Assembly (NCBI GenBank): GCA_038078615.1
Contig: JBBTWT010000007.1
Location: 1,060-65,059 of the forward strand
Reading direction: 5' to 3'
Origin: Patescibacteria group bacterium
Lineage (GTDB): Bacteria; Patescibacteriota; Minisyncoccia; Moranbacterales; UBA1568
Length of the DNA: 64,000 bases
Below the pieces are notes generated by a model that worked only from the letters and a program-made list of their open reading frames with translations, did no database searches and was not told the DNA's origin. Positions 2,470 through 61,516 of this stretch are shown here, piece after piece. The translations under genes were made by a program, and so were the position numbers. Positions within the stretch are counted from its first letter, which is position 1, and each line of letters starts with the position of its first letter.

Positions 2470-2472
2470 CCG

Positions 2473-2504
2473 ACACATCCGTATGCGGTCGCACACAGAT
2501 GTGT
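2473..2504. repeat. Palindromic repeat, copy 1 of 3 (ACACATC...GATGTGT family)
   Basis: ACACATCCGTATGCGGTCGCACACAGATGTGT is a 32-nt near-perfect palindrome starting 4 nt after the nrdD stop. Related copies lie at 50150-50187 and 50828-50863. Confidence 0.85.
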
Positions 2505-2520
2505 AGGAGGAGTTTTGGCG

Positions 2521-2700
2521 GACGGCACAACAGGAGGGAAGAGTGAAAAACAATCGCTAACAAACTAACTGACAAACATATGTCGGACAAGAAGACGGGG
2601 CAGGGAGAAGAGGGAGCAGCAGAGTCCGTCTGCGACGCTTTGCCAGCCCGCAAAGCTGCGCTTAATGCTGCTGACGGGCGCAGCGATGCGAGTGGACGCA
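2521..2700 (+). repeat. Leader-ATG-two-hairpin cassette, copy A (homologous to 41748-41935)
   Basis: Colinear with copy B. Shared parts are ACGGCA(G)CAAC, an A/C-rich tract containing AAAAACAATCG, an ATG (2580), then a core (2631-2690) with about 55 of 65 identities by hand count. Hairpins are at 2637-2656 and 2656-2683. Confidence 0.75.
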
Positions 2701-2858
2701 CGCGCTGCGAGATCTGGACGCGCGTGATGGGGTATCATCGTCCGGTGTCGCACTTCAATATCGGCAAGAAGTCCGAGCACTACTCGCGCAAGCATTTCCA
2801 GGAGACCGTCGCCGCCAATCACGAGTTCTGCGAGAAGTACCGGCTCGTGACGTGCTGA
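2580..2858 (+). CDS. nrdD: Stand-alone NrdD C-terminal glycyl-radical fragment (92-aa ORF)
   Basis: The C-terminal half reads RCEIWTRVMGYHRPVSHFNIGKKSEHYSRKHF, the class III RNR glycyl-radical signature (RVxGY...NxGKK). Its frame differs from the upstream nrdD ORF. The ATG is preceded by an A/C-rich tract like other starts in this window. Confidence 0.7.
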   Translation: MSDKKTGQGEEGAAESVCDALPARKAALNAADGRSDASGRTRCEIWTRVMGYHRPVSHFNIGKKSEHYSRKHFQETVAANHEFCEKYRLVTC

Positions 2859-5383: not shown

Positions 5384-5483
5384 ACCTGATTTTTCTTGCG
5401 TACGCGGAGAAACCTCCCCAGTCCCTCTGTACACATTTTTCCACGACCGTGGAGAAATGTGTACAAATATAAAATGACGCGTG

Positions 5484-15947: not shown

Positions 15948-16646
15948 ATGACAGAGAACATCCGTGAGCGTTTTATAGTTACCGCAGACGATTACGGCAT
16001 CCGCCAGACAGCGGAGCCGATTTTGCGCTTGGCGCACGAGGGGAAGATCGATCGCGTGGCGGTGCTGATCCACTATGTCTCCGCCGAGCAGGCGGAAGCG
16101 CTCAAGGCGACGGGAGTGAAGATCGACCTGCATCTGGAACTGATCGGGCTTCTGAAAAGCGGGGAGAAGATGCATGAGAGCGTTCTCGTGCGGAGCGTCA
16201 ATTTCATATTCCGCCGTATCGCCGGGCTGGCGACCGCGAAGAAAGTCGAGCAGGAATGGAGAGACCAGATCGTGCGCTTCCGCGATATCTTCGGCCGTCT
16301 GCCCGACGGGCTCAATTCCCATGAACATCTGCACTGTTTCCCGCCGTTTTTCAGGGTGTTCACGAAACTGGCGGAAGAATACCGCATATCGTATATCCGT
16401 TTCGGGAAGAAAGGCATGCTCACCGGCCTGCATGGGGCGTTCATCGGCGAGATTCTCGCTTTCTTCTGGAAGCGGACGCATCCCGCCTATGTCAAGACGG
16501 CGCTCGCGACATCCGATTATCTCGTGAGCCTGGATTGGCTCGCGGATTTCAAGTCTTTCAGCGAACGGCTGCCCTCCGGCAGTATCGAGCTGGTCGTGCA
16601 TCTGGAGCGCGAGGAGGATTATCGGATCATACTCGAGTATTTCTGA
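15948..16646 (+). CDS. ChbG/HpnK (YdjC-like) carbohydrate deacetylase family protein
   Basis: [15 protein letters not shown] and LNSHEHLH match the YdjC-family metal-site pattern. Confidence 0.7.
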
Positions 16647-16667
16647 CGGATCTCCCGTTTTTTTGTC

Positions 16668-16696
16668 TTGATATGCCTGCCTTTCGATGGTATACT
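16668..16696 (+). promoter_or_regulatory. Promoter for the first uvrA paralog
   Basis: TTGATA (16668-16673), 17-nt spacer, TGgTATACT (16688-16696). Confidence 0.55.
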
Positions 16697-16717
16697 GCCT
16701 TTCCTATATTTTCGCAT

Positions 16718-19318
<2,601 letters not shown>

Positions 19319-20711: not shown

Positions 20712-22157
20712 ATGGAGAAACTGTGGGAGAAAATATACACGCTTGAAGCGTTTCAGAAGAAAAACGCGTTGCCGGAAGCGCCGGGAGCGTATTTTTTCCT
20801 GGACGCGGGGAAAGAGTTGCTCTATATCGGCAAGGCGACCTCGCTTCGCGATCGGGTGAAGAGCTATTTTTCGCGCGACATCGCCCTCTCTCGCGGTCCG
20901 AAAATAATGCGGATGCTCGAACAGGCGCGTTTCATCGCGTATCGGCAGACGGACTCCGTTCTCGAGGCGCTGATCCTGGAATCCAGACTGATAAAAGAAC
21001 ATCAGCCTCCATACAACACTGATGCCAAAGACGACAAGAGCTACAACCATATCGCCATCACGCAAGAAAAATTTCCGCGCGTGCTCATCGTGCGCGGCCG
21101 CGACCTCGTAAACCGACAACCGACAATTTACCCTGTGAAATCCAGCATAGCTGGTCCGCCGAAGGCGGAATTTCATAGGGCAAGCAACCGACAACAAAAA
21201 ACAAGATACAAATACATATTCGGACCGTTTCCGCACGGTATGCAGCTGCGCGAGGCGCTCAAGATCATCCGCAAGCTGTTCCCCTTCCGGGACAAATGTT
21301 TACCCGCCGAAGTCTTGACGAAGGAGGGCATGCCATCAAAAAAAAGAACAGAGCTGAAGCCGTGTTTCAACAGGCAGATCGGCTTGTGTCCCGGAGTATG
21401 CACCGGCGAGATTTCCGCACGAGAGTACGGACGCATTATCAATCACATCCGCCTGTTCTTCGAAGGGCGCAAGAGCGTGCTTGTCAGAAAGCTGGAACGC
21501 GAGATGAAGACGGCGGCGAAACAGCTGGCATTCGAGCGGGCGAGCGAGATCAAGAAGACATTGTTCGGGCTGCGGCATATCCAGGATATGGCGCTGGTGA
21601 AGGACGACCAGCAGTTAACAGTGAACAGTCAACAAAAAACAATAAGGATCGAAGCTTATGATGTCGCGCATCTGGGGGGAGACGCGAGCGTGGGAGTGAT
21701 GGTCGTTTTGAGCAATGGCCAAGCAGACAAAGAATCTTATAGAAAATTCATTCTGCGCGGCGGACACAACGGCAATGACCTGACTGCGCTCCAAGAGATC
21801 CTGGCGCGCCGTCTGAAACATACCCCGCCCGCAACGTTTCGCAAGCGAAGCGCAGCGATTCGGGCAGGCGAGTGGCCGCTGCCGGATATCATCGTGGTGG
21901 ATGGCGGAGAGCTTCAAGTGAGGATGGCCCAGCAAGCCATCCTCAACTTAGCGGTTTCACCGCTAAGTAAACTGCGTGGTGGAATTTCGGTCGTGGGCGT
22001 GGTGAAGAATGCCAAGCATCAGCCCGAGCGCCTCATCGGACCAGAGACGCTGACGAAGCGTTTCAAAAAAGAAATCCTGCTCGCCAATAGCGAAGCGCAT
22101 CGTTTCGCCATCACCTTCCACCGCAAGCGCCGAGGAAAGGAGTTTCTGAAGATGTAG
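20712..22157 (+). CDS. uvrC: Excinuclease ABC subunit C, short form
   Basis: GIY-YIG (GAYFFLDAGKELLYIGKATSLRDRVKSYF ... LESRLIKEHQPPYN), UVR domain (LEREMKTAAKQLAFERASEIKK) and RNase-H-like nuclease (IEAYDVAHLGG). It ends at FHRKRRGKEFLKM with no (HhH)2 domain. In-frame insertion at 21108-21212. Confidence 0.9.
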   Translation: MEKLWEKIYTLEAFQKKNALPEAPGAYFFLDAGKELLYIGKATSLRDRVKSYFSRDIALSRGPKIMRMLEQARFIAYRQTDSVLEALILESRLIKEHQPPYNTDAKDDKSYNHIAITQEKFPRVLIVRGRDLVNRQPTIYPVKSSIAGPPKAEFHRASNRQQKTRYKYIFGPFPHGMQLREALKIIRKLFPFRDKCLPAEVLTKEGMPSKKRTELKPCFNRQIGLCPGVCTGEISAREYGRIINHIRLFFEGRKSVLVRKLEREMKTAAKQLAFERASEIKKTLFGLRHIQDMALVKDDQQLTVNSQQKTIRIEAYDVAHLGGDASVGVMVVLSNGQADKESYRKFILRGGHNGNDLTALQEILARRLKHTPPATFRKRSAAIRAGEWPLPDIIVVDGGELQVRMAQQAILNLAVSPLSKLRGGISVVGVVKNAKHQPERLIGPETLTKRFKKEILLANSEAHRFAITFHRKRRGKEFLKM

Positions 22158-22245: not shown

Positions 22246-25044
22246 ATGCCAGAGAAAAAGCCGATGATCGAGATTCGCGGCGCGCGGGTCAACAACCTGA
22301 AGAACGTGGACGTCGATATCCCTCGTGATGCTTTGGTGGTGGTGACCGGCTTGTCCGGTTCGGGCAAATCCTCATTAGCTTTCGATACTCTTTTCGCGGA
22401 AGCGAATCGGCGCTATGTCGAGTCGCTTTCTTCGTATGCGCGCAATTTTCTCGACGGATTCGACAAGCCGGACGTCGACGCGATCCACAACCTTTCGCCC
22501 GCCATCTCCATCGACCAGAAGAGCGTGTCGAGGAGCCCGCGTTCGACGGTCGGGACGATGACGGAGATCTATGATTACCTGCGTATCCTGTTCGCCAAGC
22601 TCGGGATTCCGCATTGTCCATCGTGCGGCAAGCGTCTCACAAGAAAGAGCGTGCGCGAGATACTCGAAGAGCTCCTCCTCCTGCCCGACAAGACGCCGCT
22701 CGCATTCATCGCGTATGGCAAGGCGCTCGCCGACAAGACCGAACGCGAGGCGCTCTCACTCATCAATGCCTGGGGATACGTACGGGTCCTGTTTCACGGG
22801 GAGCTCTCGCCGATCGCCGAAGCGATAGGACGCGCGTCCGCGACGGAAATCTCGGATATCGGCGTGGTCGTCGACCGTCTCGAGATCGACCTGTCCCGTC
22901 CCGACAAGGAGCGTATCCTCGATTCGCTCCAGACCGCGTTCCGCGTCGGCCAGGGGACGCTCACGCTCCGCATCAATGGTACCGGTGAAGAACGTATCTA
23001 CAACGAGGAATACCGCTGTGAAGAATGCCATATCGGGCTGCCGGAGTTCACGCCGAGCTGCTTTTCCTTCAACAGTCCCGAGGGCGCGTGCGAGAAGTGC
23101 GCGGGCCTTGGCGTGACGCTCGAATTCGATCCGGAACTCGTCATCCCCAACAAGAACCTGTCGCTCGCCGAAGGGGCGATCCGTCCGTGGAGCAAGATGA
23201 ACAGCGACCGCCACAGCGGCAACGGGCCGATGCAGTGGCTGCGCGACGCGAGCCGGCGGCACAAATTCTCGCTCGATATTCCGGTGAAGAAGCTCGCCGG
23301 TAAGCATTTCTCCCTCATACTGCACGGGGAAGGCGGCACGGAGCAGGATGCCTTTCCCGGCATCATCGCGCTTCTGGAGAAGAAATACCGCGAGACGAAA
23401 TCGGATCATCTGCGTACGGACATCGAGGCGTATATGCTGACCAAGCTCTGCCCTCTCTGCGAGGGGAAGCGCCTGAAGGCGGCATCGCTCGCCGTGAAGA
23501 TAGAGGGACTTTCTATCGATGATCTCGTGAAGCAGAGCGTCGATATGTTCCTGGAGAGGATGAAGCCGCTGCGGGAAAAATGCCTGAAGACGGGCGAGAA
23601 GAAGATGATCGATCCCTTGTTCCGCGAGATGGAGATGCGGCTCTCCGCCGTGGAAAAAGTGGGACTCGGATATCTCGAGCTCTCGCGCGGCGCCGATACG
23701 CTGTCCGGAGGAGAGGCGCAGCGTATCCGCCTGTCAGTGCAGATGAAATCTGGGCTTTCCGGCATCATCTATGTCCTCGACGAGCCGTCGATCGGGCTGC
23801 ACAGCCGCGATACGGAACGCCTGATCAACGCGCTCGAGGATCTGCGGAAAGCGAACAATTCTCTCGTGATCGTCGAGCATGACGTGGCGATCATGCGCCG
23901 GGCGGACTATATCATCGATCTGGGTCCGGGCGCCGGCAGCGAGGGCGGCGAGATCATCTTCGCGGGCACGCCGGACAAGCTGATGCGCTCGAAGCTCCTG
24001 ACCGGCGAATACCTCTCCGGCAAACGCAGCATATCCGAGAAGAAGAAGGCGCGTCGTCTGAGCGAAGAGGCGATCACTGTTTTCGGCGCGACGGAACACA
24101 ATCTGAAGAATGTCGACGTGAAGATCCCGCTCGGGATGCTCGTGGCGGTTTCCGGCGTCTCGGGATCGGGCAAATCGAGCCTGGTGCATGACATCCTGTC
24201 CCGGGCGCTGTCGAAATATTTCTATCATGCCAAGGCCGAGCCGGGCGCGCACAGGAAGATCGAGGGGATCTCGAATATAGACAAGGTGATCGCCGTGACG
24301 CAGGATCCGATCGGACGGACGCCGCGTTCGAACGCGGCGACGTATACCGGCATCTTCAGCCTGATCCGCGACCTGTTCGCGGCGACGACGGAAGCCGAGC
24401 GCGAGAAATATTCCGCCAGTCATTTCAGCTTCAATATGCGCGGCGGCCGCTGCGAGGCATGCCAGGGCGGCGGATTGAAGAAGATCGAGATGTATCTCCT
24501 GCCGGATGTCTACGTACCGTGCGAAGTCTGTCAGGGGACGAGATACAACGCGAAGACGCTCTCGATCGAATATCGCGGAATGAATATCGCGGCCGTGCTC
24601 CGCATGACGGTCACGGAAGCGCGCCGCTTCTTCCTGGATCAGCCGATGATCGAAGAGAAGCTGCGCGTGCTCGAGGAAGTCGGTCTCGGATATCTGGTAC
24701 TCGGACAGAGCGCGACCAACCTCTCCGGAGGAGAGGCGCAGCGTATCAAGCTCGCGACAGAACTGGCACGAAAATCGACCGGCAAGACGCTCTATATCCT
24801 CGACGAGCCGACGATCGGCCTGCATTTCGAGGATGTGCGGCGCCTGCTCGAGGTGCTCGAAGCGCTGACGGACAAAGGCAACAGCGTGCTCGTCGTGGAG
24901 CACAATCTCGATGTCATCCGCTCGGCGGATTGGGTGCTGGAGCTCGGTCCGGACGGCGGCGCCAAGGGCGGGGAGCTCATCTTCTCCGGACCGCCGGACA
25001 AATTGAAAAACTGCAAGCGTTCATTCACGGCGAAATATCTATAA
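22246..25044 (+). CDS. uvrA: Excinuclease ABC subunit A (full-length type)
   Basis: [20 protein letters not shown] twice, [11 protein letters not shown], Zn modules, and an insertion-domain-length segment between CAGLG and CPLCEGKRL. Confidence 0.95.
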
Positions 25045-25084
25045 TTTTTAAAAGAGGGTTTTTTGTCTTAGAATCGAAAGCATC

Positions 25085-25149
25085 CCGGAAGTTTTCAGAT
25101 GAACCGTGCCGAAGAGGTTTCGCCACATGGTTCCCTAAAAAACTTCCGG
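25085..25149. repeat. Rod-like hairpin element, short copy (core shared with 47539-47655)
   Basis: CCGGAAGTTTT ... AAAACTTCCGG 11-bp outer stem. The inner 39-40 nt AGATGAACCGTGCCGAAGAGGTTTCGCCACATGGTTCCCT differs at 2 positions from 47561-47600. Confidence 0.85.
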
Positions 25150-36247: not shown

Positions 36248-36283
36248 ACCTTACTTTTTATGCAATTGCATAAAAAGTAAGGT
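36248..36283. repeat. Perfect AT-rich palindrome, copy 1 of 2
   Basis: ac-CTTACTTTTTATGCAATTGCATAAAAAGTAAG-gt. The identical 32-nt core recurs at 61482-61513. Confidence 0.95.
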
Positions 36284-41747: not shown

Positions 41748-41935
41748 ACGGCAGCAACCGCCGCCAGATCGACAAAAACAAAAACAAAAAACAATCGTAT
41801 GCAGGAACGACGCCATCACGTCAGAATGATGTCTCCCGGGGGACACAGGCACGGTCTCGAGCCCGTTCGCAACGCTTTGCCAGCCCGAAAAGCTACGCTT
41901 AACGTTGCTGGCGGGCGTAGCAATGCGGGCAGGCT
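41748..41935 (+). repeat. Leader-ATG-two-hairpin cassette, copy B (homologous to 2521-2700)
   Basis: ACGGCAGCAAC, (ACAAAA)n...AAAAACAATCG, ATG 41799, then hairpins 41874-41893 and 41893-41920. Compensatory differences relative to copy A. Confidence 0.75.
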
Positions 41936-42218
41936 CGCGGGCTCGGTGCACGTGTTCGTGCTGATTGTTTTTCTGATCGCGTTCGTGGCGGGCGGAGGTT
42001 ATCTGTATTCCGTCAATCGTAGCGCGGTGCAGGGATATCATATGCGGACGCTGGAGAAGGAGATCGACAAACTCAAGCAGAATAACGCGGAGCTCAGGAT
42101 CGCCGAGGCGGATCTGCGGTCGCTCTATCGCATCGAGACCGCGGAAGAAGAGCTCGGCATGCAGAAGCTCGACACTATCATCTATCTCGAGGAACATGGA
42201 CCGATAGCTCTGCGGTAG
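41799..42218 (+). CDS. ftsL: Cell division protein FtsL-like (N-terminus encoded by the cassette)
   Basis: TM segment VFVLIVFLIAFVAGGGYLY followed by coiled-coil LEKEIDKLKQNNAELRIAEADL. Lies between rsmH and ftsI. The true start could be later (ATG 41826/41829 or GTG 41947). Confidence 0.6.
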   Translation: MQERRHHVRMMSPGGHRHGLEPVRNALPARKATLNVAGGRSNAGRLAGSVHVFVLIVFLIAFVAGGGYLYSVNRSAVQGYHMRTLEKEIDKLKQNNAELRIAEADLRSLYRIETAEEELGMQKLDTIIYLEEHGPIALR

Positions 42219-47534: not shown

Positions 47535-47538
47535 TTAT

Positions 47539-47655
47539 AGAAAAGATTTCAAAAGTTTTTAGATGAACCGCGCCGAAGCGGTTTCGCCACATGGTTCCCT
47601 GCCCGAAGTGCTACATCGTGGCAGGCGGGCCTAAAAAACTTTTGAAATCTTTTCT
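47539..47655. repeat. Rod-like hairpin (MITE-like) element, long copy
   Basis: 23/24-bp terminal inverted repeats: AGAAAAGATTTCAAAAGTTTTTAG with CTAAAAAACTTTTGAAATCTTTTCT. The inner core is shared with 25098-25136. Carries an extra hairpin CTGCC..GGCAG. Confidence 0.9.
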
Positions 47656-50149: not shown

Positions 50150-50187
50150 CCTACACATCTATGTGCGACCGCACAGAGATGTGTAGG
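50150..50187. repeat. Palindromic repeat, copy 2 of 3
   Basis: CCTACACATCT-at-GTGCG-ac-CGCAC-ag-AGATGTGTAGG, ending 10 nt upstream of ATG 50198. Confidence 0.9.
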
Positions 50188-50806: not shown

Positions 50807-50827
50807 AAATATATGTTATTCTTGTGC

Positions 50828-50863
50828 CTACACATCTATGTGCGGTCGCATATAGATGTGTAG
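50828..50863. repeat. Palindromic repeat, copy 3 of 3
   Basis: CTACACATCTATGTGCGGTCGCATATAGATGTGTAG, starting 22 nt after the stop of the PaaX-like gene. Confidence 0.9.
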
Positions 50864-61478: not shown

Positions 61479-61516
61479 AGTCTTACTTTTTATGCAATTG
61501 CATAAAAAGTAAGACT
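61479..61516. repeat. Perfect AT-rich palindrome, copy 2 of 2
   Basis: agt-CTTACTTTTTATGCAATTGCATAAAAAGTAAG-act. The flanks differ from copy 1 but are still self-complementary. Confidence 0.95.

What the first reader, a model, noticed from the sequence alone, without database searches (positions are those of the whole stretch)
21108..21212. In-frame roughly 30-aa insertion in uvrC made of a branched hairpin flanked by 10-bp direct repeats
Between the conserved ...RVLIVRG and YIFGPFPHG segments, B. subtilis UvrC has about 9 residues. This gene has 39.

The DNA has these parts:
- CAACCGACAA at 21117-21126 and again at 21185-21194.
- Between them, an outer stem CCCTGTGAAATCC (21131-21143) with GGAATTTCATAGGG (21167-21180).
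- Two inner hairpins, CCAGC-ata-GCTGG and TCCGCC-gaa-GGCGGA.

The right flank GGCAAGCAACCGACAACAAAAAACAAG matches the left part of cassette copy B (GGCAGCAACCG...CGACAAAAAC...AAAAAACAA). This looks like a MITE- or RPE-like insertion with a target duplication. The reading frame stays open through it, so it is probably translated.
Basis: partly seen in the sequence, partly recalled or inferred. Interest (0 to 1): 0.65.

Follow-up and report, generated by a model that had tools for sequence, protein, structure and literature searches.

The report
Mobile hairpin element inside uvrC gene
A 58-base self-folding repeat element sits in frame inside the DNA-repair gene uvrC of a Patescibacteria genome and adds a floppy loop to the protein; this is a new example of a known phenomenon, at a spot in the gene that collects such elements in related bacteria.

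Summary
uvrC (20712-22157, +) carries a 58-nt element (21127-21184). It folds into a three-way junction and is flanked by a perfect 10-nt direct repeat.

It is one copy of a previously uncatalogued repeat family:
- About 16 copies were found in Moranbacteria, Parcubacteria, MAGs labelled Bdellovibrionales and Bacteroidales, and one viral contig. Most are intergenic.
- All share a roughly 15-bp terminal inverted repeat, TTTACCCTGTGAAAT.
- The two inner hairpins covary.
- Flanking direct repeats of 6-10 nt are enriched.
- No Rfam family matches.

The insert lies in the linker after the GIY-YIG domain. That linker is 14 residues long in 77 of 108 Moranbacteria UvrC and is a hotspot. Other lineages carry other palindromic elements at the same place.

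AlphaFold models the insert as an unstructured, low-confidence loop, and all invariant UvrC residues are kept. It is most likely translated and tolerated.

A second species carries the same element at the same codon. There the element is 93% identical at the nucleotide level, against 66% for the rest of the gene, and its closest relatives lack the element.

The claimed link to "cassette B" is not. No transposase and no second copy in this window were found.

The parts
20712..22157 (+). uvrC ORF of 481 aa, a short Patescibacteria-type UvrC. Domains: GIY-YIG, UvrC_M, UVR and RNase H-like. No C-terminal HhH domain.
   Evidence: ORF. Pfam domains and nearest relatives (Moranbacteria). PDB matches: query residues 15-111 align to the GIY-YIG domain 1YD6, and 312-477 to the C-terminal nuclease domain 3C65. 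All columns that are invariant in 104 homologues are kept in this sequence.
21102..21218 (+). Linker codons between ...RVLIVRGR and FGPFP...: 39 residues, DLVNRQPTIYPVKSSIAGPPKAEFHRASNRQQKTRYKYI.
   Evidence: The same linker is 14 aa (DIEQKKFTEPVKYL-like) in 77 of 108 parsed homologues. Residues 137-162 have pLDDT < 50 and no secondary structure.
21111..21124 (+). Tandem heptamer AACCGAC AACCGAC immediately left of the element. It acts as an extra tandem copy of the flanking repeat unit.
   Evidence: Sequence. Left-flank tandem repeats of period 6-9 occur in 7 of 16 family copies, against 1.9 expected (P = 0.0017). 68 + 7 = 75 nt = 25 codons.
21117..21126 (+). Left copy of the direct repeat CAACCGACAA. 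It abuts the first base of the element consensus (TTTACCC...).
21127..21184 (+). The 58-nt palindromic element: TTTACCCTGTGAAATCCAGCATAGCTGGTCCGCCGAAGGCGGAATTTCATAGGGCAAG.
   Evidence: Covariance model R1 scores it 80.1 bits, E = 1e-22. It aligns end to end with the other family copies.
21131..21141 (+). 5' arm of the outer stem, which is the terminal inverted repeat: CCCTGTGAAAT.
   Evidence: Folds. Conserved in all copies. A GTGAAAT/ATTTCAC to GTTAAAT/ATTTAAC double change occurs in L011b and L023.
21142..21154 (+). Inner hairpin 1: CCAGC-ATA-GCTGG.
   Evidence: The distal pair covaries across copies: AU 5, GC 4, CG 3.
21155..21169 (+). Inner hairpin 2: TCCGCC-GAA-GGCGGA.
   Evidence: Five of its 6 pairs show changes on both sides across copies. 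The copy in the second species has a C-G to T-A change that alters two amino acids, PPKA to PSKT.
21170..21180 (+). 3' arm of the outer stem: ATTTCATAGGG. It has one G-T wobble relative to the consensus ATTTCACAGGG.
21185..21194 (+). Right copy of the direct repeat CAACCGACAA.

Best explanation
The insert is one copy of a small, non-autonomous, MITE-like palindromic repeat element of about 58-62 bp.

**Anatomy.** Its roughly 15-bp terminal inverted repeats (TTTACCCTGTGAAAT / ATTTCACAGGGTAAA) pair as an outer stem. They enclose two short hairpins, so a single strand of DNA or RNA forms a three-way junction.

**Insertion.** The element integrated into A-rich, AAC-containing DNA that encodes the flexible linker just after the GIY-YIG nuclease domain of UvrC. 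It is flanked by a 9-10-bp duplication of the target, plus a further 7-nt tandem copy on the left. The net gain is 75 nt, or 25 codons.

**Consequence.** The gain is in frame and the element has no stop codon in this frame. It is therefore read through and adds an unstructured surface loop that UvrC tolerates. The linker is one of a few loops in this protein where such insertions survive. This explains why several unrelated palindromic elements occupy the same place in other Moranbacteria.

**Shown:** family membership, conserved termini, covarying hairpins, enrichment of flanking repeats, the open frame, the loop position and the hotspot.

**Inferred:** mobilisation in trans by an unidentified transposase, translation of the insert, and functional neutrality.
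For: **The family exists.**
- A pattern scan of one genome per species gave 12 loci, about 10 of them true copies.
- A metagenome scan added 2. A viral-contig scan added 1.
- The covariance model found 2 more divergent tandem copies in L011.
- Several genomes hold more than one copy: two contigs of the Moranbacteria MAG MFD09730 (L005, L007), three contigs of one MAG labelled Bacteroidales (L006, L009, L012), and three copies on one Parcubacteria contig (L011).
- Most copies are intergenic and lie in either orientation relative to neighbouring genes.

**The structure is conserved.**
- 92% of cells pair. Eight pairs carry double-sided changes in 20 cells. None of 500 shuffles reaches this, and slid controls pair at only 25-50%.

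**Flanking repeats are enriched.**
- 5 of 16 copies have a direct repeat of at least 7 nt next to the ends, against 0.27 expected. The mean longest repeat is 6.1 nt against 3.9 (P < 0.0005).
- Removing 75 nt here leaves DLVNRQQKTRYKYI. That is 14 residues, the ancestral linker length, and it resembles relatives such as DILQSQKKKEYKYV.

**The gene looks functional.**
- Only the frame in use is free of stops in this copy.
- All invariant UvrC columns are kept.
- The insert and the other lineage-specific inserts are the low-confidence, unstructured parts of the AlphaFold model.

**The site is a hotspot.**
- P0010 and P0046 carry a four-way cloverleaf element at this site. P0045, P0003, P0031, P0017/P0032 and P0048 have linker peptides suggestive of other hairpin-derived inserts, but their DNA was not examined.

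**Other.**
- No Rfam family matches, and there is no promoter-like or terminator-like site at the element.
- In-frame MITE and RPE insertions are an established phenomenon (PMC10969869).
Against: - There is no second copy in this 64-kb window. Copy number in this genome is unknown.
- The family is rare in the exact-pattern scans: 12 and 4 loci.
- No transposase and no isolated terminal repeat that could mark a parent IS was seen in any locus fetched. Plasmids gave no match.
- Element plus one repeat adds 68 nt, which is not a multiple of three. The simple target-duplication model needs the extra 7-nt copy.
- Hairpin-free relatives (P0002, P0019, P0012) already have linkers built of 5 similar heptamers. 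The repeat may therefore predate the element or be a scar of earlier events.
- The copy in L001 has no clear flanking repeat.
- A neutral insert should decay. Yet the two uvrC copies are 93% identical, with 89% identity at third codon positions, in genes that are 66% and 38% identical elsewhere. This needs either recent gain or selection on the nucleic acid.
- Covarying internal hairpins are not a usual MITE feature.
Confidence: 0.68

Rival explanations
1. The three-way junction is a functional nucleic-acid structure kept by purifying selection inside the uvrC coding sequence. It could be an mRNA element that sets stability, processing or translation rate, or a DNA or RNA site bound by a protein. 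On this view the peptide is a by-product.
For: - The 19 element codons are the most conserved 19-codon stretch of the gene between two species: 93% nucleotide and 89% third-position identity, against 66% and 38% for the rest. Conservation stops sharply at the element's ends.
- The one internal difference in hairpin 2 is a compensatory C-G to T-A change that alters two amino acids.
- Both inner hairpins covary across the family.
- Junction-proximal pairs and the outer stem are conserved in sequence across phyla.
Against: - The nearest relatives of both carriers lack the element and keep an otherwise intact uvrC. P0025 is 87% identical to P0004. P0002, P0015 and P0005 are 78-79% identical to P0001.
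- Other lineages have unrelated elements at the same site.
- Intergenic copies show no constant gene neighbour or orientation.
- The loops are not conserved.
- No Rfam family matches.
- Conservation among copies is equally expected if only intact elements transpose and both insertions are recent.
Confidence: 0.12
2. This copy did not arrive by transposition. It arrived by homologous recombination that moved a uvrC linker segment, element included, between Moranbacteria lineages. The element is still a repeat-family member, but its presence here reflects allele mosaicism.
For: - The distribution is patchy against the gene tree. P0001 and P0004 are only 73% identical on 409 conserved columns yet share the element at the same codon. 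They also share the same derived features, an ATA loop and a GGGCA end.
- P0010 and P0032 are 95% identical but have wholly different linkers. P0010's linker, including the flanking DLEKY...IKY, matches that of distant P0046 (68% identical). P0032's linker matches that of P0017.
Against: - Between the window and L001 the codons immediately flanking the element are as diverged as the rest of the gene. A transferred patch would have to coincide exactly with the element.
- The perfect 10-nt repeat in this copy fits a fresh integration better than an imported old one.
Confidence: 0.12
3. The insert is a home-grown loop expansion made by local slippage and palindrome formation in a low-complexity linker, not a copy of a dispersed element.
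For: The linker is prone to tandem duplication: KNQELGI-KNQEYQKI in P0005 and KHLASSI-KHLASQAI in P0041, plus heptamer arrays in P0002, P0012 and P0019.
Against: Near-identical 60-nt structures occur in intergenic DNA of other phyla, with the same termini and architecture. Independent local origin is excluded for the hairpin itself.
Confidence: 0.03
4. The element is not translated. It is skipped by ribosomal bypassing or removed from the mRNA, as with phage T4 gene 60 or the mitochondrial 'byp' elements of Magnusiomyces. That comparison is from my own knowledge.
For: The insert is a stable hairpin flanked by repeated codons (AAC CGA CAA on both sides) inside an essential-domain linker. Because only full-length predicted proteins were retrieved, out-of-frame carriers would have been missed.
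Against: - The frame is open and in register in both carriers. It is also in register for the unrelated elements at this site in at least 7 other proteins.
- There is no stop codon after a take-off codon.
- A disordered loop is structurally acceptable.
Confidence: 0.03

Closest known systems
Rickettsia palindromic elements (RPEs)
   Same: Both are palindromic, hairpin-forming repeat elements that insert in frame into unrelated protein-coding genes. Both are read through and add a peptide at positions compatible with the protein fold (PMC10969869).
   Different: - RPEs are about 100-150 bp, belong to ten Rickettsia-specific families and each encodes a conserved peptide.
- This element is 58-62 bp and forms a three-way junction with covarying inner hairpins.
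- It occurs in Patescibacteria and other phyla.
- Here it is mostly intergenic, with only the two uvrC copies seen inside a gene.
- No sequence relationship to RPEs was tested.
Bacterial MITEs (for example Correia/NEMIS, ERIC, Coxiella QMITE1/2)
   Same: The element is short and non-coding. It has conserved terminal inverted repeats and direct repeats of the target next to younger copies. It has a stable stem-loop transcript and several copies per genome. Occasional in-frame fusions with host ORFs occur (PMC10969869).
   Different: - It lies at the extreme low end of MITE size.
- Its internal hairpins are maintained by compensatory change, which MITE interiors normally are not.
- Its flanking repeats are of variable length (6-10 nt) and often come with an extra tandem copy on one side.
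- No parent IS with matching ends was found.
REP/BIME elements mobilised by RAYT (TnpA-REP) transposases
   Same: Both are very short structured palindromes, dispersed and mostly extragenic, whose pairing is conserved through compensatory changes. On this analogy the element would be recognised as a folded single strand. This is from my own knowledge.
   Different: - The conserved 5' GTAG tetranucleotide of REPs is not present.
- This element is a branched three-way junction rather than a single imperfect hairpin.
- REPs do not make target duplications.
- No RAYT-like gene was seen next to any copy, and neighbouring genes were not systematically annotated.
The 'VIPAKAGIQ / DSRLRGND' hairpin repeat GTCATTCCCGCGAAGGCGGGAATCCAG
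   Same: It occupies the identical uvrC linker site in P0046 and P0010, also in frame. It is also nearly identical in DNA between distant carriers. It folds into a branched, four-way structure there.
   Different: Elsewhere it is usually a single hairpin.

Membership tests
MITE (miniature inverted-repeat transposable element) | Short (tens to a few hundred bp) and without a transposase gene of its own | tested here: met
   All copies are 58-71 nt and leave no room for an ORF.
MITE (miniature inverted-repeat transposable element) | Conserved terminal inverted repeats | tested here: met
   TTTACCCTGTGAAAT / ATTTCACAGGGTAAA is conserved in every copy. The scans required part of it, so its invariance is partly by ascertainment. 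The model-found copies L011b and L011c, and the L023 copy retrieved with a GTTAAAT-variant pattern, keep it with a compensated G-C to T-A change.
MITE (miniature inverted-repeat transposable element) | Target-site duplication flanking the element | tested here: inconclusive
   At family level, 5 of 16 copies have flanking repeats of at least 7 nt against 0.27 expected. Lengths vary from 6 to 10 nt. An extra tandem copy on the left is frequent. No true empty/filled allele pair was available, and hairpin-free linkers already contain similar heptamer arrays.
MITE (miniature inverted-repeat transposable element) | Multiple dispersed copies within a genome | tested here: inconclusive
   Two or three copies were seen in three other MAGs or contigs (L005+L007; L006+L009+L012; L011 with three). 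Only one copy lies in the 64 kb available for this genome.
MITE (miniature inverted-repeat transposable element) | A related autonomous IS with the same ends that can mobilise it in trans | not testable with these tools
   No isolated terminal repeat occurs in any fetched locus. Plasmids gave no match.
Rickettsia palindromic elements (RPE-1 to RPE-10) | Roughly 100-150-bp element of one of the Rickettsia families, encoding a conserved peptide | tested here: not met
   The element is 58 nt and its hosts are Patescibacteria and others. RPE sizes are from PMC10969869. No sequence comparison with RPEs was run.
Rickettsia palindromic elements (RPE-1 to RPE-10) | In-frame insertion in host ORFs at positions compatible with the protein fold | tested here: met
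   The frame is open. The insert maps to a loop with pLDDT < 50 between domains.
REP / BIME (RAYT-associated) | Single imperfect palindrome of 20-40 nt preceded by a conserved GTAG, extragenic, with no target duplication | tested here: not met
   The structure is branched and about 60 nt long. No GTAG lies at the 5' end. Flanking repeats are enriched. Two copies lie inside a gene.
Any Rfam RNA family (release 15) | Match to a curated covariance model | tested here: not met
   No hit at gathering score in the window. Around the element only chance-level hits appeared, with E at least 0.38. Nothing lay at the element in 8 other loci.

The most novel reading that the evidence does not exclude
The three-way-junction element, and the four-way element at the same codon in other lineages, are not passive hitch-hikers. 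On this reading they are structured mini-elements that repeatedly and specifically home to the linker after the GIY-YIG domain of uvrC. Alternatively they are held there by selection on a nucleic-acid structure that acts on uvrC expression.

The target-target-element-target flank pattern, and the heptamer arrays at three uvrC loops, would then be the footprints of an undescribed insertion/excision mechanism operating in Patescibacteria.
Probability: 0.15. Interest if true: 0.75.

Novelty: new member of a known kind. Interest (0 to 1): 0.5.

Why it matters
Patescibacteria (CPR) have small genomes that are usually thought to be poor in mobile DNA. This finding shows an RPE-like process, palindromic repeats written in frame into a conserved housekeeping protein, operating in this group. 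It also defines a compact, structurally constrained repeat family that crosses phylum boundaries and is absent from Rfam.

In practice, such inserts inflate and diversify CPR protein lengths, create spurious 'lineage-specific loops' in alignments, and can mislead gene callers and structure predictors.

Three features give a tractable system for asking how very short structured elements move and why they persist:
- the uvrC linker hotspot
- the patchy distribution against the gene tree
- the unusual flank signature

No effect on repair function is shown.

Tried and rejected
**Known RNA classes.**
- Rfam at gathering score and at E-value thresholds, and ARAGORN, found no known RNA class.
- The hammerhead, riboswitch and terminator ideas were dropped. 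The junction has no unpaired conserved core, the loops are not conserved, there is no U-tract, and there is no promoter-like or terminator-like site at the element.

**Other copies in the window.**
- A search allowing 3 mismatches and the covariance model found none.

**Peptide-level searches for other host proteins all failed for technical reasons.**
- An 80-column concatenation of the four open frames gave 83 candidates, none scoring.
- A 30-aa window peptide against 1.84 billion representatives gave 0 hits.
- A 68-aa linker query found no candidate sharing words, not even the query's own protein.
- Whether other proteins carry the element in frame therefore remains untested.

**Scans of other collections.**
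- Viral-contig scans with the GTGAAAT-type patterns gave 0 hits.
- The plasmid collection gave no match.

**'Cassette B' link.**
- Rejected as a 12-nt A-rich word.

**Small GIY-YIG nuclease genes as partners of the abundant 27-mer hairpin.**
- Only 4 of 143 hairpins had such a motif within 500 nt. This was kept only as a lead.

**Resemblance of the ancestral linker DNA to the element's end.**
- TTTACGGAACCAGTGAAAT resembles the element's terminal repeat. It was treated as chance because the carriers' clades no longer have that linker.

**Literature.**
- Searches found no description of such elements in CPR.
Full report
**1.

The window encodes a 481-aa UvrC on the + strand, 20712-22157. Its relatives are annotated as Patescibacteria or Moranbacteria.

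Inside it, CAACCGACAA occurs at 21117-21126 and 21185-21194. These are the only two matches in 64 kb, against 0.12 expected.

Between the two copies lie four parts:
- CCCTGTGAAAT (21131-21141), which pairs with ATTTCATAGGG (21170-21180)
- CCAGC-ATA-GCTGG (21142-21154)
- TCCGCC-GAA-GGCGGA (21155-21169)

The stretch folds into exactly this three-way junction, with no unpaired junction bases. As RNA it gives -29.2 kcal/mol with z = -5.2. As DNA it gives -18.7 kcal/mol with z = -6.9, and the opposite strand folds similarly.

Two independent assemblies carry the identical sequence, so it is not an assembly artefact.

**2. It is an insertion in a variable linker.**

In 77 of 108 parsed Moranbacteria UvrC, the segment between ...RVLIVRGR and FGPFP... 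is 14 residues, DIEQKKFTEPVKYL-like. Here it is 39 residues.

The solved GIY-YIG domain (1YD6) aligns to residues 15-111, and the C-terminal nuclease domain to residues 312-477. The insert, at residues 139-157, therefore lies after the GIY-YIG domain and before the Cys-rich region.

An AlphaFold model built from 104 homologues gives pLDDT < 50 and no secondary structure for residues 137-162. The gene's other lineage-specific insertions (200-213, 293-308, 375-386) look the same.

All columns that are invariant across the 104 homologues are retained. The gene looks functional and the insert looks like a tolerated surface loop.

**3. The hairpin belongs to a dispersed repeat family.**

- A pattern scan of one genome per species returned 12 loci, about 10 of them genuine.
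- A metagenome scan added two.
- A viral-contig scan with a variant stem added one.
- A covariance model (R1) found two further divergent tandem copies in a Parcubacteria contig.

Hosts are Moranbacteria, Parcubacteria, and MAGs labelled Bdellovibrionales and Bacteroidales. Several contigs or MAGs have two or three copies.

Every copy has the same architecture:
- a conserved outer stem, TTTACCCTGTGAAAT / ATTTCACAGGGTRAA
- conserved junction-proximal pairs
- two inner hairpins whose distal pairs and loops vary

Covariation supports the fold. 92% of cells pair, 8 pairs and 20 cells carry double-sided changes, and 0 of 500 shuffles reach this. Slid controls pair at 25-50%. The outer stem shows a compensated G-C to T-A change in the variant copies.

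Most copies are intergenic and lie in either orientation to their neighbours. No Rfam family matches. In this window the uvrC copy is the only one.

**4. Evidence for mobility.**

Direct repeats next to the element's ends are enriched. 5 of 16 copies have a repeat of at least 7 nt, against 0.27 expected, and the mean longest repeat is 6.1 nt against 3.9 (P < 0.0005).

| Copy | Flanking repeat | Length (nt) |
|---|---|---|
| window | CAACCGACAA | 10 |
| L010 | TTATAACTT | 9 |
| L011 | AAAAACAAA | 9 |
| L023 | CTACAGCCT | 9 |
| L012 | TGTTAAAT | 8 |
| L009 | ATTGTT | 6 |

With conserved terminal inverted repeats and a size of about 60 bp, this fits a MITE-like element (definition in PMC10969869).

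An unexpected extra appears in the same copies. The left flank often carries a second, tandem copy of the repeat unit, giving target-target-element-target. This occurs in 7 of 16 left flanks against 1.9 expected (P = 0.0017).

In uvrC this matters. Element plus one repeat adds 68 nt, which is out of frame. The extra AACCGAC (21111-21117) brings the gain to 75 nt, or 25 codons. Removing 75 nt leaves DLVNRQQKTRYKYI. That is 14 residues, the ancestral length, and it resembles relatives such as DILQSQKKKEYKYV.

The same tandem copy is seen at intergenic copies, where no frame needs restoring. It is therefore more likely part of the insertion process or of the target than a later frame repair.

There is a caveat. 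Hairpin-free relatives with 21-residue linkers (P0002, P0019, P0012) have linkers made of five similar heptamers. The repeats could therefore pre-exist, or could be scars of earlier insertion and loss. I could not resolve this.

**5. The site is a hotspot with a patchy history.**

A second species (P0004; L001, identical to L015) has the same element at the same codon.

The 19 element codons are 93% identical in DNA and 89% identical at third positions. The rest of the gene is 66% and 38% identical. The element is the most conserved 19-codon stretch of the gene, and conservation ends at its borders.

One difference in hairpin 2 is a compensatory C-G to T-A change that alters two residues. Both uvrC copies share derived features, an ATA loop and a GGGCA end.

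Yet on 409 conserved columns the two proteins are only 73% identical. P0004's closest relatives (P0025 at 87%, P0038 at 83%) and P0001's closest relatives (P0002 at 79%, P0015 and P0005 at 78%) all lack the element.

The same holds for a different element. P0010 and P0046 are 68% identical, yet share at this site a four-way cloverleaf that differs only in its loops:

GTCAT[TCCCGC..GCGGGA][ATCCAG..CTGGAT][CCCGGG..CCCGGG]ATGAC

P0032, which is 95% identical to P0010, has an unrelated linker.

Other linkers read like translations of further hairpins: DSRLRGND in P0045, FGSSxSKI in P0017 and P0032, and NPKSK-IPASPAGRK-NPKSK in P0048. This is inferred from the peptides only; their DNA was not examined.

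The simplest reading has two parts. Palindromic elements land widely, and only in-frame copies in tolerant loops of essential genes survive. The near-identity of copies then reflects recent gain from intact source copies.

Transfer of linker segments between lineages by recombination remains possible. So does selection on the structure itself. I rank both as rivals.

**6. Comparison with known systems.**

The closest analogues in behaviour are the Rickettsia palindromic elements and in-frame MITE insertions generally (PMC10969869). By membership:
- The element meets the MITE criteria of size and terminal repeats.
- The criteria of target duplication and copy number are only partly met.
- The parent IS could not be sought.
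- It is not an RPE by size or host.
- It is not a REP, because it is branched, lacks GTAG and has flanking repeats.
- It is not in Rfam.

Two features go beyond the textbook MITE: the covarying interior and the target-target-element-target flanks.

**7. Verdict.**

I rate this a new member of a known kind. Interest is moderate (0.5) because of the CPR setting, the cross-phylum structured family, the uvrC hotspot and the unexplained flank signature.

Three things remain untested:
- whether other proteins carry the element in frame, because the peptide searches failed technically
- the copy number in this genome
- what mobilises the element

Noticed in passing
window 21946-21968 (uvrC, residues about 412-420): A second in-frame hairpin lies in the same gene. 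It is a perfect 9-bp stem, ACTTAGCGG-TTTCA-CCGCTAAGT, encoding LAVSPLSKL. It is shared only with the P0005/P0006/P0016/P0021 subclade (LAVKPPS) and is absent from most UvrC.
   Followed up: partly
window 21612-21639 (uvrC site 3); L147, L022 and L148 linkers: A degenerate heptamer array, CAGTTAA CAGTGAA CAGTCAA CAAAAAA, encodes QQLTVNSQQK here. The same kind of array sits at the linker site in P0019 (AACAGTT AACAGTT AACAAAA), P0002 and P0012. From the protein alignment, similar Q/N/T-rich motifs also appear at a third loop in other UvrC. AACAGTT-type 8-mers also flank the element copy L012 in an unrelated MAG. These may be footprints or a target preference.
   Followed up: partly
window 2622-2706 and 41859-41943: An 85-nt repeat, 79% identical between its two copies, lies in frame in the N-terminal parts of two unrelated ORFs (...ESVCDALPARKAALNAADGRSDASG... 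and ...EPVRNALPARKATLNVAGGRSNAG...).
   Followed up: partly
window 2470-2506, 5428-5464, 50150-50186, 50827-50863: A separate family of roughly 37-nt palindromes, CCTACACATCTATGTGCGACCGCACAGAGATGTGTAGG, has four copies in the window (families D5 and I1-I4). They were not examined.
   Followed up: no
window 36248-36283 and 61479-61516; also 25073-25136 and 47537-47600: Two identical perfect 32-36-nt palindromes (CTTACTTTTTATGCAATTGCATAAAAAGTAAG) lie 25 kb apart. A 64-nt repeat pair at 84% identity overlaps inverted repeats. Both were listed by the repeat scan and were not examined.
   Followed up: no
L020 10409-10480 and L021 3415-3490 (uvrC of P0046 and P0010): A four-way cloverleaf element sits at the same uvrC codon. 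It differs between two proteins of 68% identity only in its loops.
   Followed up: partly
L064 and L106 (viral contigs; L038 by eye only): In L064 and L106 a small GIY-YIG nuclease-like ORF (YVYILAS..NGTLY) starts 55-100 nt from the abundant 27-mer hairpin. A similar ORF in L038 was seen by eye only. Overall only 4 of 143 hairpins show this. It is an untested lead, given that the uvrC insertion site follows a GIY-YIG domain.
   Followed up: partly
L024 10409-10429 (uvrC of P0040, ancestral linker): The ancestral linker DNA, TTT ACG GAA CCA GTG AAA TAT, resembles the element's terminal repeat TTTAC-CCTGTGAAAT. This is probably chance and was not tested statistically.
   Followed up: no
window 16535-19318 and 22246-25044: uvrC is flanked by two full-length uvrA paralogues of 927 and 932 aa. 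The gene order uvrA, uvrC, uvrA and then type IV pilus genes is conserved in related Moranbacteria contigs.
   Followed up: no
P0032 (UvrC homologue), alignment columns 147-173 of A1: One homologue has a 27-residue insertion inside the GIY-YIG domain itself, YYQTKRVERKFTFISERSAGKIGFNTR. It is absent from its 95%-identical relative P0010.
   Followed up: no
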